Origin: Escherichia coli O127:H6 str. E2348/69
GTDB lineage: Bacteria > Pseudomonadota > Gammaproteobacteria > Enterobacterales > Enterobacteriaceae
NCBI RefSeq assembly: GCF_000026545.1
Contig: NC_011601.1
Length of the DNA: 64,000 bases
Direction: 5' to 3' (one strand)
The position numbers were made by a program. Position 1 is the stretch's first letter. Every line of letters starts with the position of its first letter. Below are positions 1 to 15,000 of this stretch, in pieces.

Positions 1-3000
1 ACGCGCCGCCGCTCATCGTCTAAGGAGTACTTATGAGCGCGCTATTTCTGGCTATTCCGTTAACCATTTTTGTGCTGTTTGTTTTACCGATCTGGTTATG
101 GCTGCATTACAGCAATCGTTCCGGCCGCAGTGAATTGTCACAAAGTGAGCAGCAGCGATTAGCGCAACTGGCTGATGACGCAAAACGGATGCGCGAGCGT
201 ATTCAGGCGCTGGAATCCATTCTTGATGCAGAACATCCGAACTGGAGGGATCGCTAATGGCGGGCATTAATCTCAATAAAAAATTATGGCGTATTCCGCA
301 GCAGGGCATGGTACGCGGCGTCTGCGCCGGGATTGCCAACTATTTTGATGTACCAGTAAAACTGGTGCGTATCCTGGTGGTGCTGTCGATTTTCTTCGGT
401 CTGGCGCTGTTTACCCTGGTTGCTTACATCATTTTGTCATTTGCGCTTGATCCAATGCCGGACAACATGGCCTTTGGTGAGCAGCTACCTTCCAGCAGCG
501 AATTGCTGGATGAAGTCGACCGTGAACTGGCGGCAAGTGAAACGCGTTTACGCGAGATGGAACGTTATGTCACTTCCGACACTTTCACGCTGCGTAGCCG
601 TTTCCGTCAACTGTGAGGAAAGTTATGAATACTCGCTGGCAACAGGCCGGGCAAAAGGTGAAGCCTGGGTTCAAATTAGCAGGCAAGCTGGTACTTCTTA
701 CCGCACTGCGCTATGGCCCGGCGGGTGTGGCGGGCTGGGCGATAAAATCAGTTGCTCGCCGACCGCTGAAAATGTTGCTGGCTGTGGCGCTGGAACCGCT
801 GTTAAGTCGGGCTGCCAATAAACTGGCGCAGCGTTATAAAAGGTGAGGGGAGTTTCGCAAAAATGGTTAAATCTCAGGCGTATAATGGATAGCAATTTTC
901 ATCCATAGAAGGACGCTTACATGTTTAAAAAAGGCTTACTTGCTCTGACACTGGTGTTTTCACTGCCCGTTTTCGCCGCTGAACACTGGATCGATGTTCG
1001 TGTTCCAGAGCAGTATCAGCAAGAACACGTTCAGGGGGCCATCAATATTCCCCTGAAGGAAGTGAAAGAGCGCATTGCCACCGCCGTTCCGGATAAAAAC
1101 GACACCGTGAAAGTGTATTGCAATGCCGGACGCCAGTCAGGGCAGGCAAAAGACATCCTTAGCGAGATGGGATATACCCACGTTGAGAACGCCGGCGGCC
1201 TGAAAGACATCGCAATGCCGAAGGTCAAAGGTTAAAAGAATCCACCCTAAGCGGCGCTTATGCGCCGTTTACTTTTTCTGTCACACCTTATTTACATCCC
1301 CATAGATTATTTGCGTCAGCTCACAAATACGCTTTTTCCCTGGTAAAAAATGATTTCCTGCGTGACTAAAACCCTTGTGCTCAATTGACAGTTTATTTTC
1401 TGCGGAGTAGTCTCTCGTTTCATGGGACCGCTACCACGGAAAGGCAACATGAAACAGAAAATTACGGATTACCTGGACGAAATCTACGGTGGAACATTTA
1501 CCGCAACTCATTTACAGAAACTTGTAACGCGTCTTGAGAGTGCGAAACGATTAATTACACTGCGACATAAAAAACACTGGGATGAAAGTGATGTCGTGTT
1601 AATCACCTATGCCGATCAATTTCACAGTAATGATTTAAAACCACTACCCACATTTAATCAGTTTTACCCTCAATGGCTGCAAAGCATTTTTTCACATGTT
1701 CATTTATTACCTTTTTATCCATGGTCATCTGATGATGGCTTTTCGGTAATTGATTATCATCAGGTCGCCAGTGAAGCGGGGGAGTGGCAGGATATTCAGC
1801 AACTCGGTGAATGCAGTCATTTAATGTTTGATTTTGTCTGCAACCATATGTCGGCAAAAAGTGAATGGTTTAAAAACTATTTACAACAGCAGCCAGGTTT
1901 TGAAGATTTTTTTATTGCCGTTGACCCGCAAACCGATCTCAGCGCCGTCACCCGTCCGCGTGCGTTACCGTTATTAACGCCATTCCAGATGCGCGATCAT
2001 TCAACGCGCCATTTATGGACCACCTTTAGTGACGATCAAATTGACCTGAATTACCGTAGCCCTGAAGTGTTACTGGCGATGGTGGATGTATTGCTGTGCT
2101 ACCTGGAAAAGGGCGCAGAATATGTCCGTCTGGATGCCGTTGGCTTTATGTGGAAAGAGCCGGGAACAAGCTGCATCCATCTGGAAAAAACACATCTGAT
2201 TATCAAGCTGTTACGGTCGATTATTGATGACGTAGCACCAGGTACAGTGATCATTACCGAGACCAATGTTCCGCATAAAGACAACATTGCTTACTTTGGC
2301 GAAGGCGATGACGAAGCACATATGGTGTACCAGTTCTCGCTGCCGCCGCTGGTGCTGCATGCGGTGCAAAAACAGAACGTTGAGGCGCTTTGTGCGTGGG
2401 CGCAAAACCTGACACTACCTTCCAGCAACACCACCTGGTTTAACTTCCTCGCCTCTCACGATGGCATCGGGCTGAACCCACTGCGTGGCTTGTTACCCGA
2501 AAGCGAAATATTAGCGCTGGTCGAGGCATTACAGCAGGAAGGTGCATTAGTAAACTGGAAAAATAATCCCGACGGTACGCGCAGTCCCTATGAAATAAAT
2601 GTCACCTATATGGATGCGTTAAGCCGCCGCGAGAGTAGCGATGAAGAACGTTGCGCCAGGTTTATCCTTGCCCATGCGATTTTGTTAAGTTTCCCCGGTG
2701 TGCCAGCGATATATATTCAAAGTATTCTGGGCTCGCGTAATGATTACGCAGGTGTCGAAAAACTCGGATATAACCGTGCGATTAACCGTAAAAAATATCA
2801 CAGTAAAGAGATAACCCGAGAACTGAACGATGAAGCTACATTAAGGCACGCGGTATATCATGAATTGTCGCGACTAATTAAAATTCGTCGAAGTCATAAC
2901 GAGTTTCATCCAGATAATGATTTTACCATCGACACGGTTAATTCATCCGTAATGTGTATTCAAAGAAGCAACGCGGATGGTAATTGTCTGACAGGATTGT

Positions 3001-12000: not shown

Positions 12001-15000
12001 GCTTCGTGGTGCGTGCAGCACAGAATCGCCGGCTGGAAGAAGCACCCGGCAAGCTCTTCGAACTGCCGGAAGTCCTGGCAACCGCGGGAAGCCACACGCT
12101 GAATGTGATGCAAAAAGGCGGGCGGGCAGCCCGCCAGGCCCGGATGTTCATCAGTTACAGCGAAGTCAGCATAAAAAATCCCGACAACAGCGGCCAGGCG
12201 CTCCCGCTCACGTATGTCTGTTGCCGGGAGCAGGCAGAGGACGGCGCCTGCTGGCATCTGCTGACGTCAGAAAAAGTGGCGAGTGCCGCCGATGCGCGAC
12301 GTATCGTCAGCCATTACGAGCGACGCTGGCTGATAGAGGAATACCACAAGGCGTGGAAAAGTGGTGGTACATGTGTGGAATCGCTGCGAATGCAGACCCG
12401 GGATAACCTCGAGCGCATGGTGGTTATCAAGGCGTTTATCGCGGTGCGGGTGCTGGGCCTGCGGCAGGGCGGTATCAGTGAAGAAACACAAAATGACAGC
12501 TGTGAGAAAATACTGACGCCGACAGAGTGGAAACTGCTGTGGGTTAAGCTGGAAGGAAAACCGCTTCCGTCACAGATGCCGACACTGAAATGGGCCTGTC
12601 TGAAACTGGCGAAACTGGGGCGATGGCATGACAGCAAACGCACCGGTCGCCCCGGTTGGGTAGTCATGTGGGATGGCTGGTTCAGACTTCAGGATATGGT
12701 TGAGGGTTACCTGGTGATGAAGTCTCTTGATCAGGAGATCTGATCAAGAGACAGCTGTTCTGGCAGGGCTGCGAATTACAGGTCACTCTCGACGCGCAGC
12801 GTATTGCGATTCGAACTTCTGCGCCCGTTTCACTGCGCTTGAACGGTCAGCTTATTTACGTCGCTGAAGAATCTGTTTTCTGTTTGGGGGATTTTATTTT
12901 GCCCTTCAATGGGACCGCTACCACACATCAGGAGGGTGAATGAAACTGCAAGGGGTAATTTTCGATCTGGATGGTGTAATCACCGATACCGCGCATCTGC
13001 ATTTCAAGGCGTGGCAGCAGATTGCCGCTGAAATTGGCATCAGCATTGATGCGCAGTTTAACGAATCCCTAAAAGGGATCAGCCGCGATGAGTCTCTGCG
13101 GCGCATTCTGCAGCACGGGGGCAAAGAGGGCGACTTTAACCCGCAGGAGAGGGCGCAACTGGCGTATCGCAAAAATCTGCTTTACGTCCACTCACTGCGC
13201 GAACTGACGGTTAATGCTGTGCTGCCCGGCATTCGCAATTTGCTGGCTGATCTCCGTGCACAGCAGATCCCTGTAGGGCTGGCTTCTGTCTCCCTGAATG
13301 CGCCGACGATTTTAGCAGCGCTGGAGCTGCGCGAGTTTTTCACCTTCTGCGCGGACGCTTCCCAACTTAAAAACTCGAAACCGGACCCGGAAATCTTTCT
13401 CGCCGCCTGTGCCGGACTGGGCGTGCCGCCGCAGGCATGTATCGGCATTGAAGATGCGCAGGCGGGCATTGACGCCATTAACGCCAGCGGTATGCGCTCG
13501 GTGGGGATCGGCGCGGGCTTAACCGGGGCGCAATTACTGTTGCCCTCAACGGACTCCCTGACCTGGCCGCGGTTATCGGCCTTCTGGCAAAACGTATAGC
13601 AAAGGAATCAACATGGCTCAGCTTTCGTTACAACATATTCAAAAAATCTACGATAACCAGGTGCATGTGGTGAAGGACTTCAACCTGGAAATTGCCGATA
13701 AAGAGTTCATTGTCTTTGTCGGTCCGTCAGGCTGCGGTAAATCGACCACCCTGCGCATGATTGCCGGGCTTGAGGAGATCAGCGGCGGCGATCTGTTGAT
13801 CGACGGCAAACGAATGAATGACGTTCCAGCCAAAGCGCGCAATATTGCGATGGTGTTCCAGAACTACGCGCTGTATCCGCATATGACGGTCTACGACAAC
13901 ATGGCGTTTGGCCTGAAGATGCAAAAAATCGCCAAAGAGGTGATTGATGAGCGGGTGAACTGGGCGGCGCAAATTCTCGGCCTGCGAGAGTACCTGAAAC
14001 GCAAGCCGGGCGCGCTTTCTGGCGGGCAACGCCAGCGTGTGGCGCTCGGGCGGGCGATTGTGCGCGAAGCGGGCGTGTTTTTAATGGATGAACCGCTCTC
14101 TAACCTTGATGCCAAGCTGCGCGTGCAAATGCGCGCAGAGATCAGCAAGCTGCATCAGAAACTGAACACCACCATGATCTACGTGACCCACGATCAGACC
14201 GAAGCGATGACCATGGCGACGCGGATTGTGATTATGAAGGATGGGATTGTTCAGCAAGTAGGTGCGCCGAAAACGGTTTATAACCAACCTGCGAATATGT
14301 TTGTTGCCGGATTTATTGGATCGCCTGCGATGAATTTTATTCGCGGCACGATCGATGGCGATAAATTCGTTACGGAAACGCTTAAATTAACCATACCCGA
14401 AGAGAAATTAGCGATTCTGAAAATACAGGAAAGTTTGTATAAGCCCATCGTGATGGGAATACGCCCGGAAGATATTCATCCGGACGCGCAAGAAGAAAAT
14501 AACATTTCCGCCAAAATTAGCGTGGCAGAATTAACCGGTGCTGAATTTATGCTCTACACCACGGTTGGGGGGCACGAACTGGTGGTCCGTGCTGGTGCGT
14601 TAAATGATTATCATGCAGGAGAAAATATCACTATTCATTTTGATATGACTAAATGTCATTTCTTTGATGCAGAAACGGAAATAGCAATTCGCTAAATACA
14701 GGGGGAAGGCATTCCCCCAGGATAATACAAGGAACAATAATGAAAAATTTATTACCCTGTACCGCACTGGTGATGTGTGCGGGAATGGCCTGCGCACAGG
14801 CCGAGGAAAAGAACGACTGGCACTTTAATATCGGCGCGATGTACGAAATAGAAAACGTCGAGGGTTATGGCGAAGATATGGATGGGCTCGCGGAGCCTTC
14901 TGTCTATTTTAATGCCGCCAACGGGCCGTGGAGAATTTCTCTGGCCTATTATCAGGAAGGGCCGGTAGATTATAGCGCGGGTAAACGTGGAACGTGGTTT

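What the first reader, a model, noticed from the sequence alone, without database searches (positions are those of the whole stretch)
1422..12924. Exact 16-bp repeat ATGGGACCGCTACCAC upstream of ycjM and of ycjU: candidate YcjW operator pair
The same 16-mer occurs 12 bp before the ycjM ATG (1422-1437) and 16 bp before the ycjU ATG (12909-12924, inside the ycjT 3' end). It has imperfect dyad symmetry typical of LacI-family operators (TGGGACC / GCTACCA about a CG centre), and the operon is flanked by the LacI-family repressor gene ycjW. An exact 16-bp coincidence is very unlikely by chance. I recall published ChIP evidence for YcjW binding in this operon but cannot verify that the sites are the same.
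Basis: partly seen in the sequence, partly recalled or inferred. Interest (0 to 1): 0.55.

Follow-up and report, generated by a model that had tools for sequence, protein, structure and literature searches.

The report
Known YcjW repressor operator pair
The repeated 16-mer is real and marks the two binding sites of the sugar-responsive repressor YcjW in the E. coli ycj operon, but both sites were already mapped and tested in published work, so this is a correct rediscovery and not a new finding.

Summary
The exact 16-mer ATGGGACCGCTACCAC occurs at 1422-1437 and 12909-12924, both on the + strand. The ycjM and ycjU (pgmB) ATGs start 12 and 16 nt after it. The window is E. coli E2348/69.

The functional unit is the 14-bp core TGGGACCGCTACCA, the published YcjW operator:
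- Luhachack 2019 found their two most enriched ChIP-seq regions upstream of ycjM and between ycjT and ycjU.
- Their ycjM EMSA probe is identical to window 1406-1455.
- Kojibiose releases YcjW, and a ycjW deletion derepresses the operon 20-60 fold.
- In the Gao 2021 ChIP-exo list, the ycjU and ycjM sites are the two strongest of 64.

New here:
- The core is invariant at both sites in most of about 15 enterobacterial genera.
- In Buttiauxella and Dryocola, site 2 is the reverse complement of site 1. That fits a DNA-binding dimer and argues against an RNA motif.
- Site 1 lies 9 nt after a conserved TTGACA-17-TAGTCT promoter, in a lacO1-like position.
- Site 2 has no conserved promoter upstream and is probably a roadblock (inferred).

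- An exact 16-mer pair is not improbable in 64 kb.
- The 16th base is polymorphic; it is A in K-12.

Verdict: interpretation supported, already known, low interest.

The parts
1422..1437 (+). Repeat copy 1. The 14-bp YcjW operator core TGGGACCGCTACCA is 1423-1436 (site 1, the ycjM operator).
   Evidence: Exact match. It sits in the centre of the published YcjW EMSA probe LL58, which equals window 1406-1455. ChIP-seq peak. The core is invariant in 13 of 15 aligned genera, and the other two carry an arm-swapped variant.
12909..12924 (+). Repeat copy 2. The 14-bp YcjW operator core is 12910-12923 (site 2, inside the ycjT 3' end and just upstream of the ycjU ribosome-binding site).
   Evidence: Exact match. 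ChIP-seq peak between ycjT and ycjU. The strongest ChIP-exo site is a 30-bp interval centred on the K-12 equivalent. It forms a conserved island in otherwise diverged flanks.
1385..1413 (+). Inferred ycjM promoter: -35 TTGACA (1385-1390), 17-nt spacer, -10 TAGTCT (1408-1413). The operator core starts 9 nt after the -10.
   Evidence: Read directly from the sequence. TTGACA and G-GTA---T are invariant columns in the 15-genus alignment A1. The 9-nt spacing is conserved (7 nt in Cronobacter). The consensus scan misses it because the -10 matches only 3 of 6 positions. No transcription start site was mapped here.
1248..1271 (+). Terminator-like hairpin with a T-run after pspE, separating the psp genes from the ycjM promoter.
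1449..3128 (+). ycjM (glucosylglycerate phosphorylase), first gene of the repressed operon.
   Evidence: RefSeq annotation.
9117..11204 (+). ycjT (kojibiose phosphorylase) 5' fragment, truncated at codon 696 of 755 in this strain.
   Evidence: Annotation and comparison with K-12.
11206..12754 (+). ISEc13 (IS4 family) insertion in ycjT, with a 10-bp target duplication (11196-11205 equals 12755-12764). It ends 154 bp upstream of site 2.
   Evidence: BLAST against K-12 and self-BLAST; annotation.
12755..12943 (+). ycjT 3' remnant that contains site 2.
12940..13599 (+). ycjU/pgmB (beta-phosphoglucomutase), the gene immediately downstream of site 2. It is followed by ycjV (13613-14695) and ompG (14740-15645).
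15696..16694 (-). ycjW, the LacI-family repressor that binds both sites.
   Evidence: Pfam LacI HTH and Peripla_BP_1 domains; annotation; literature.

Best explanation
The two copies are the two operators of the LacI-family repressor YcjW in the ycjMNOPQRSTUV-ompG operon. The recognised unit is the 14-bp CG-centred imperfect palindrome TGGGACCGCTACCA. The two extra identical flanking bases in this strain are incidental. A YcjW dimer binds each site, and kojibiose releases it (published). Site 1 lies 9 nt downstream of a conserved TTGACA-17-TAGTCT promoter, so its centre is at about +10 of the transcript. This is the same geometry as lacO1, and bound YcjW would block initiation or promoter escape (geometry shown here; mechanism inferred). 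Site 2 sits about 10 kb downstream (11.5 kb in this strain, because of the IS insertion), inside the ycjT coding end and 13-16 nt before the ycjU start. It has no conserved promoter upstream. It most likely acts as an intragenic roadblock, a second checkpoint on ycjU-ycjV-ompG (inferred, not shown).
For: Published evidence:
- The most enriched ChIP-seq regions are at these two places, with a shared 14-nt motif.
- Purified YcjW shifts a 50-bp probe identical to window 1406-1455.
- Kojibiose disrupts the complex, and a ycjW deletion derepresses ycjM, ycjT, ycjU and ompG 20-60 fold.
- In ChIP-exo, the ycjU and ycjM sites have S/N 1665 and 840, against 121 or less for the other 62 sites. The ycjU interval is a 30-bp footprint centred on site 2.

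Found here:
- A scan of 100,044 species genomes for the 16-mer found 91 loci. Every hit in Escherichia, Citrobacter, Enterobacter and Lelliottia, and in single assemblies labelled Pseudocitrobacter and Raoultella, lies directly upstream of a ycjM or ycjU homologue. No genome has more than two. The remaining hits are single scattered matches in unrelated phyla.
- Loci fetched through YcjS orthologues, without selecting on the site, carry the exact 14-mer at both sites in Yokenella, Klebsiella sp., Lelliottia, Pseudenterobacter, an unnamed metagenome contig (L104) and K-12. One- or two-base variants occur at site 2 in Salmonella, Siccibacter and L103. Buttiauxella and Dryocola carry a two-base variant at each site.
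- The core is preserved while neighbouring proteins fall to 62-77% identity and the flanking DNA is scrambled.
- In Buttiauxella and Dryocola, site 2 is the reverse complement of site 1. That is expected for a two-fold symmetric DNA-binding dimer.
- A LacI-family gene is adjacent in every locus. Its recognition helix [11 protein letters not shown] is invariant across the 11 orthologues compared (66-87% overall identity).
- The promoter-operator spacing at site 1 is conserved.
- No promoter-like site and no conserved -35/-10 island precedes site 2.
Against: - The ChIP-exo interval assigned to ycjM maps 106-128 bp downstream of site 1, inside ycjM, where no motif exists. This is unexplained.
- The ycjM transcription start site is predicted, not mapped here, and the consensus promoter scan does not call the promoter.
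- No experiment addresses what site 2 does. Fewer than 1% of LacI-family sites lie in coding regions, so its role could be unconventional.
- Cronobacter condimenti lacks site 2 entirely, so it is dispensable in at least one lineage.
- The larger derepression of ycjU (39-58 fold) than of ycjT (20-26 fold) fits either a roadblock or an internal promoter.
Confidence: 0.93

Rival explanations
1. Site 2 is the operator of an internal promoter inside ycjT that drives ycjU-ycjV-ompG independently of the ycjM promoter. It is not a roadblock.
For: In E. coli, Klebsiella sp. and some Citrobacter, a TATTTT hexamer lies exactly 9 nt upstream of the core. This is the same spacing as the -10 at site 1. ycjU and ompG are derepressed somewhat more than ycjT in a ycjW deletion. 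ChIP-exo signal is higher at site 2 than at site 1.
Against: No sigma-70-like promoter is called upstream of site 2 in K-12 or in the window. By direct reading, the -35 position matches at most 2 of 6 bases. The TATTTT is not conserved: Yokenella has TTTTTC, Buttiauxella and Dryocola have TTTCAC, and Lelliottia has TTCTTT. At site 1, by contrast, both hexamers are invariant. The constant spacing is explained by the conserved ycjT reading frame.
Confidence: 0.3
2. The two operators cooperate through DNA looping, as lac O1-O2 or gal OE-OI do, so that site 2 mainly strengthens repression at the ycjM promoter.
For: There are two identical high-affinity sites in one operon. Auxiliary operators are common in the LacI/GalR family (established knowledge).
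Against: The sites are 9.9 kb apart in K-12 and 11.5 kb apart here. YcjW is 332 aa, and its ligand-binding domain runs to residue 323. That leaves no room for a LacI-type C-terminal tetramerisation helix. It was modelled as a dimer (Gao 2021 supplement). Cronobacter condimenti keeps site 1 without site 2.
Confidence: 0.05
3. The repeat acts at the RNA level, for example as a shared leader motif bound by a small RNA or a protein upstream of both ribosome-binding sites.
For: Both copies are on the coding strand and are transcribed, and each lies just upstream of a Shine-Dalgarno sequence.
Against: In Buttiauxella and Dryocola, site 2 is the reverse complement of site 1, which would destroy a strand-specific RNA motif. 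There is no Rfam match in 1-17500. Direct binding of YcjW to double-stranded DNA is published.
Confidence: 0.02
4. The repeat is a chance coincidence with no function.
For: Exact direct 16-mer pairs are common in 64 kb. Three others occur in this window, and 61% of Markov simulations have at least one.
Against: Both copies sit at equivalent positions before genes of one operon. The 14-bp core is conserved across about 15 genera while the flanks diverge. ChIP and EMSA data are published.
Confidence: 0.01

Closest known systems
YcjW operators of E. coli K-12 (Luhachack et al. 2019, Nat Commun 10:2868; Gao et al. 2021, NAR 49:9696)
   Same: These are the same two sites, the same 14-bp core and the same regulator. 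The EMSA probe sequence is identical to window 1406-1455.
   Different: In this strain (E2348/69) the 16th base of site 2 is C, not A, so the exact repeat is 16 bp and not 15 bp. ycjT is also split by ISEc13 154 bp upstream of site 2.
lac O1 operator and LacI
   Same: Both are CG-centred pseudo-palindromes bound by a LacI-family repressor and placed about +10/+11 relative to the start of transcription, just downstream of the -10. Both repressors are released by a disaccharide-type inducer (lac details from established knowledge; ycj geometry).
   Different: YcjW lacks the LacI tetramerisation helix. Its second operator is 10 kb away and not 401 bp away, so lac-style looping is unlikely.
PurR operator inside purB, and CcpA cre sites inside coding regions (intragenic roadblocks)
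   Same: In each case a LacI-family repressor binds inside a transcribed coding region and blocks elongating RNA polymerase (established knowledge). This is the best analogue for site 2.
   Different: Roadblocking by YcjW at site 2 has not been tested. Site 2 is at the extreme 3' end of ycjT and directly abuts the next gene's ribosome-binding site.
Weak YcjW sites at narP and cyaA
   Same: They belong to the same motif family: narP is TGGTAGCGTTACCA and cyaA is TGGGAACGTTACCA (probe sequences). Both also appear in ChIP-exo.
   Different: Their signal is roughly 10-20 fold lower, and they are not linked to the sugar operon.

Membership tests
LacI/GalR-family operator | Even-length palindrome (14-22 bp) with a central CG pair | tested here: met
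   TGGGACCGCTACCA has a central CG, and 5 of 7 position pairs are complementary (4 mismatches against its own reverse complement). The family definition is from Ravcheev 2014.
LacI/GalR-family operator | A cognate LacI-family regulator gene is encoded at the locus | tested here: met
   ycjW at 15696-16694 (minus strand) has the Pfam LacI HTH (E 3e-20) and Peripla_BP_1 (E 3e-25) domains. A LacI-family gene is adjacent in all 11 orthologous loci examined.
LacI/GalR-family operator | The site is conserved upstream of orthologous regulated genes (phylogenetic footprint) | tested here: met
   The core is invariant or differs by 1-2 bases at both sites across about 15 genera while the flanks diverge. 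The exception is Cronobacter condimenti, which lacks site 2.
LacI/GalR-family operator | Orientation-independent, as expected for a dimer binding double-stranded DNA | tested here: met
   In Buttiauxella and Dryocola, site 1 (TGGTACCGCTCCCA) is the reverse complement of site 2 (TGGGAGCGGTACCA).
LacI/GalR-family operator | [quoted passage not shown] | tested here: inconclusive
   Site 1 meets this. It lies 9 nt after the conserved -10 and 12 nt before the ATG. Site 2 is inside the ycjT coding sequence with no promoter detected, which is atypical.
YcjW regulon (direct target) | Direct binding by YcjW in vitro and in vivo | not testable with these tools
   Published for K-12: EMSA on a probe identical to window 1406-1455, ChIP-seq and ChIP-exo. 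Site 2 has in vivo evidence only. No EMSA probe for it is listed in the primer table passages returned.
YcjW regulon (direct target) | Derepression when the regulator is deleted or the inducer is present | not testable with these tools
   Published: ycjM, ycjT, ycjU and ompG rise 20-60 fold in a ycjW deletion, and kojibiose at 0.5-1 mM releases YcjW from DNA.

The most novel reading that the evidence does not exclude
This reading goes beyond what is published. Every natural YcjW operator seen here keeps one TGGGA arm and one TGGTA arm, while positions 6 and 9 drift. In Buttiauxella and Dryocola the two arms of site 1 have swapped through two substitutions, which restores the same G-plus-T combination. 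This would mean selection holds the operators at a specific hetero-palindromic, sub-maximal affinity. It would also make the intragenic site 2 a conserved roadblock checkpoint on ycjU-ycjV-ompG, and not a redundant copy.
Probability: 0.25. Interest if true: 0.35.

Novelty: already known. Interest (0 to 1): 0.12.

Why it matters
The ycj operon encodes kojibiose and glucoside catabolism, an ABC transporter and the large-channel porin OmpG. Its derepression through a ycjW mutation also turns on PspE-dependent H2S production and raises antibiotic tolerance (Luhachack 2019). Knowing the operators matters for that biology, but they are already mapped. The modest additions here are these:
- The dual-operator layout and the promoter-operator spacing are ancestral across the Enterobacteriaceae examined.
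- Orientation flipping confirms DNA-level recognition.
- The role of the intragenic second operator remains an open, testable question.
- In EPEC E2348/69 an IS element separates the two operators and inactivates ycjT.

Tried and rejected
1. Chance. Chance as the explanation is also rejected, on conservation.
2. Site 2 tied to ompG. Cronobacter condimenti lacks both site 2 and ompG, which suggested that site 2 exists to silence the porin. The ompG-less locus L103 keeps site 2 (CGGGAGCGGTACCA at -27), so the link fails.
3. Internal promoter at site 2. Consensus scans of K-12 and of the window found none, and the alignment shows no conserved hexamers. This is kept only as a rival.
4. Known RNA family. 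Rfam finds nothing in 1-17500.
5. ycjW autoregulation. There is no further motif with up to 3 mismatches and a central CG near ycjW or anywhere else in 1-17500. The only other match is a poor one at 5768.
6. Zuo and Stormo 2014. The paper is cited for testing the YcjW motif, but it is not held in the library, so I could not verify that claim.
7. ChIP-exo at site 1. I tried to confirm site 1 at base-pair resolution. The listed interval falls about 110 bp downstream and remains unexplained.
8. Genome-wide copy count in E. coli. The genome-contig scan did not return an E. coli-labelled record. One MAG with E. coli-like sequence (labelled Citrobacter sp.) and two other Escherichia species each returned exactly two copies, both at ycj. 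A BLAST count of a 16-mer in 28 Gb is not feasible.
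Full report
**Observation.** The 16-mer ATGGGACCGCTACCAC occurs exactly twice in the window, at 1422-1437 and 12909-12924, both on the + strand. There is no third match even with three mismatches allowed. The window is 100% identical to E. coli O127:H6 E2348/69. Its RefSeq annotation gives this gene order:
- pspE
- ycjM-N-O-P-Q-R-S
- ycjT, interrupted
- an ISEc13 transposase
- the ycjT remnant
- pgmB (ycjU), ycjV and ompG
- ycjW, convergent on the minus strand

**Is the repeat more than chance?** The exact match alone is not. 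The window holds three other exact direct repeats of 16-17 bp in unrelated places. Third-order Markov simulations of a 64-kb window give a mean of 1.16 exact direct 16-mer pairs, and 61% of simulations have at least one. What makes this pair significant is its equivalent placement before two genes of one operon, together with its conservation.

**The functional unit is 14 bp, not 16.**
- In K-12 MG1655, site 2 reads ATGGGACCGCTACCAA.
- Across complete E. coli genomes, a 40-mer centred on site 2 with C at the 16th base is found in 3216 genomes, and the K-12 form with A in 1694. These add up to about the 4930 genomes that carry the operon.
- The site 1 40-mer is intact in 4619 genomes.
- In Enterobacter quasihormaechei, the ycjM site is gTGGGACCGCTACCAt. 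Both flanking bases differ and the 14-mer is intact.

**Published evidence.**
- Luhachack et al. 2019 (PMC6599011) did ChIP-seq on FLAG-tagged YcjW. [quoted passage not shown] The two share a 14-nt motif.
- Their 50-bp ycjM EMSA probe LL58 (supplement) is GAGTAGTCTCTCGTTTCATGGGACCGCTACCACGGAAAGGCAACatgAAAC. This is identical to window 1406-1455.
- Purified YcjW shifts the probe, and kojibiose at 0.5-1 mM releases it.
- In a ycjW deletion, ycjM rises 28-62 fold, ycjT 20-26 fold, ycjU 39-58 fold and ompG 34-47 fold (source data).
- Weaker sites at cyaA (TGGGAACGTTACCA) and narP (TGGTAGCGTTACCA) define the motif family.
- Gao et al. 2021 ChIP-exo (PMC8464067) lists 64 YcjW sites. ycjU has S/N 1665 and ycjM 840, and the next best is 121.
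- Converting their NC_000913.2 coordinates by +1976, the ycjU interval is GCCCTTCAATGGGACCGCTACCAAACATCA, a 30-bp footprint centred on site 2.
- The interval assigned to ycjM falls 106-128 bp downstream of site 1, inside ycjM, where I find no motif. I cannot explain this.
- Zuo and Stormo 2014, cited as having tested the motif, is not held in the library.

**Independent evidence from comparison.**
- A scan of one genome per species (100,044 species) for the 16-mer returned 91 loci.
- tblastn with the window's proteins and the flanking sequences show that every hit in the relevant genera lies directly upstream of a ycjM or ycjU homologue. The genera are Escherichia, Citrobacter, Enterobacter and Lelliottia, plus single assemblies labelled Pseudocitrobacter and Raoultella. 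No genome has more than two hits.
- The remaining hits are single scattered matches in unrelated phyla, as chance predicts.
- That set is biased towards exact matches, so I fetched eleven further loci through YcjS orthologues of 71-86% identity.
- The 14-mer is exact at both sites in Yokenella, Klebsiella sp., Lelliottia, Pseudenterobacter and a JGI contig. Site 2 is TGGGACCGATACCA in a Salmonella lineage, CGGGAGCGCTACCA in Siccibacter and CGGGAGCGGTACCA in L103.
- Neighbouring proteins are only 62-77% identical. The alignments show the operator as an island in diverged flanks.
- The YcjT C-terminal tail that overlaps site 2 is only 45-50% identical at the protein level in Citrobacter and Lelliottia, so the constraint is on the DNA.

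**DNA-level or RNA-level recognition.** In Buttiauxella and Dryocola, site 1 is TGGTACCGCTCCCA and site 2 is TGGGAGCGGTACCA, its exact reverse complement. A symmetric dimer on double-stranded DNA tolerates this, but a strand-specific RNA motif would not. Rfam finds nothing in 1-17500.

**The regulator.** YcjW has a LacI HTH domain (residues 4-49) and a periplasmic-binding-protein fold reaching residue 323 of 332. There is no room for a LacI-type tetramerisation helix, and Gao et al. modelled it as a dimer. Its recognition helix [11 protein letters not shown] is invariant across the 11 orthologues compared (66-87% overall identity), which matches the invariant half-sites.

**Mechanism at site 1.**
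- Upstream of the operator, TTGACA (1385-1390) and TAGTCT (1408-1413) are 17 nt apart.
- TTGACA and the pattern G-GTA---T are invariant in all 15 aligned genera.
- The core begins 9 nt after the -10 in 14 of the 15 aligned sequences (7 nt in Cronobacter).
- The consensus scanner misses this promoter because the -10 matches only 3 of 6 positions.
- A pspE terminator lies at 1248-1271.
- With a start about 7 nt after the -10, the operator centre is near +10, the lacO1 geometry. Blocking of initiation or promoter escape is inferred from this geometry.

**Mechanism at site 2.**
- It lies in the last 12 codons of ycjT, 13-16 nt before the ycjU ATG in every genus, with the Shine-Dalgarno sequence in between.
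- No promoter-like site is found upstream in K-12 or here, and no conserved hexamers appear in the alignment.
- Looping to site 1 over 10 kb by a dimer is unlikely.
- I therefore favour an intragenic roadblock, as for PurR at purB or CcpA cre sites (established knowledge). An internal promoter is the main rival, at about 0.3.
- Fewer than 1% of LacI-family sites lie in coding regions, so the placement is unusual but not new.
- Cronobacter condimenti has site 1 but not site 2. The idea that site 2 exists to silence ompG failed, because ompG-less L103 keeps it.

**Verdict.** Two questions remain open:
- What does the intragenic operator do?
- Why does every natural operator keep one TGGGA arm and one TGGTA arm, even after the arm swap in Buttiauxella and Dryocola?

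Noticed in passing
window 11196-12764; second copy at 58061-59612: An ISEc13 (IS4-family) element of about 1549 bp is inserted in ycjT, with a 10-bp target duplication. It truncates kojibiose phosphorylase at codon 696 of 755 and ends 154 bp upstream of YcjW site 2. An inverted copy, 99.9% identical, lies 45 kb away. Among the records listed, only the E2348/69-lineage records match across the insertion.
   Followed up: partly
K-12 locus L093 1297-1332 (ycjM codons ~27-38); equivalent to window ~1529-1564: The Gao 2021 ChIP-exo interval assigned to ycjM (S/N 840) maps 106-128 bp downstream of operator site 1, in sequence with no YcjW-like motif. The ycjU interval, by contrast, is centred exactly on site 2. 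A weaker interval (S/N 38) lies at ycjN +66..+103.
   Followed up: partly
L096 3163 and 13287; L100 3330 and 13272: In Buttiauxella and Dryocola the two operators are reverse complements of each other. All operator variants seen keep one TGGGA arm and one TGGTA arm, while positions 6 and 9 vary. This may reflect selection for a hetero-palindrome of fixed affinity.
   Followed up: partly
window 1422-1451: The ATG at the start of the 16-mer is in frame with ycjM, adding 9 codons with no stop. Gene callers in Yokenella and Klebsiella sp. start ycjM at that ATG or GTG inside the operator. If the transcript starts near 1420, this would be a near-leaderless start codon.
   Followed up: no
window 13613-14695 versus K-12 L093 11822-12903: ycjV (the ABC transporter ATPase) is intact at 360 aa in E2348/69 but is a split pseudogene (ycjV/ymjB) in K-12. 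E2348/69 has instead lost ycjT. Each strain carries a different lesion in the operon.
   Followed up: no
L095 (Cronobacter condimenti) 13193-13293; L103 9160: Cronobacter condimenti lacks both site 2 and ompG but keeps site 1. Another ompG-less locus (L103) keeps site 2. In L103 the part of the operon upstream of ycjS is replaced by Mu-like phage tail genes.
   Followed up: yes
window 29930/34355, 34500/35534, 38493/43481: These are three other exact direct repeats of 16-17 bp. They were used only as a yardstick for chance and were not examined.
   Followed up: no
E. coli genome collection: Six places on plasmid records match the ycjM-site 40-mer, and six match the ycjU-site 40-mer. This suggests the operon occurs on plasmid-labelled replicons in a few assemblies.
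   Followed up: no
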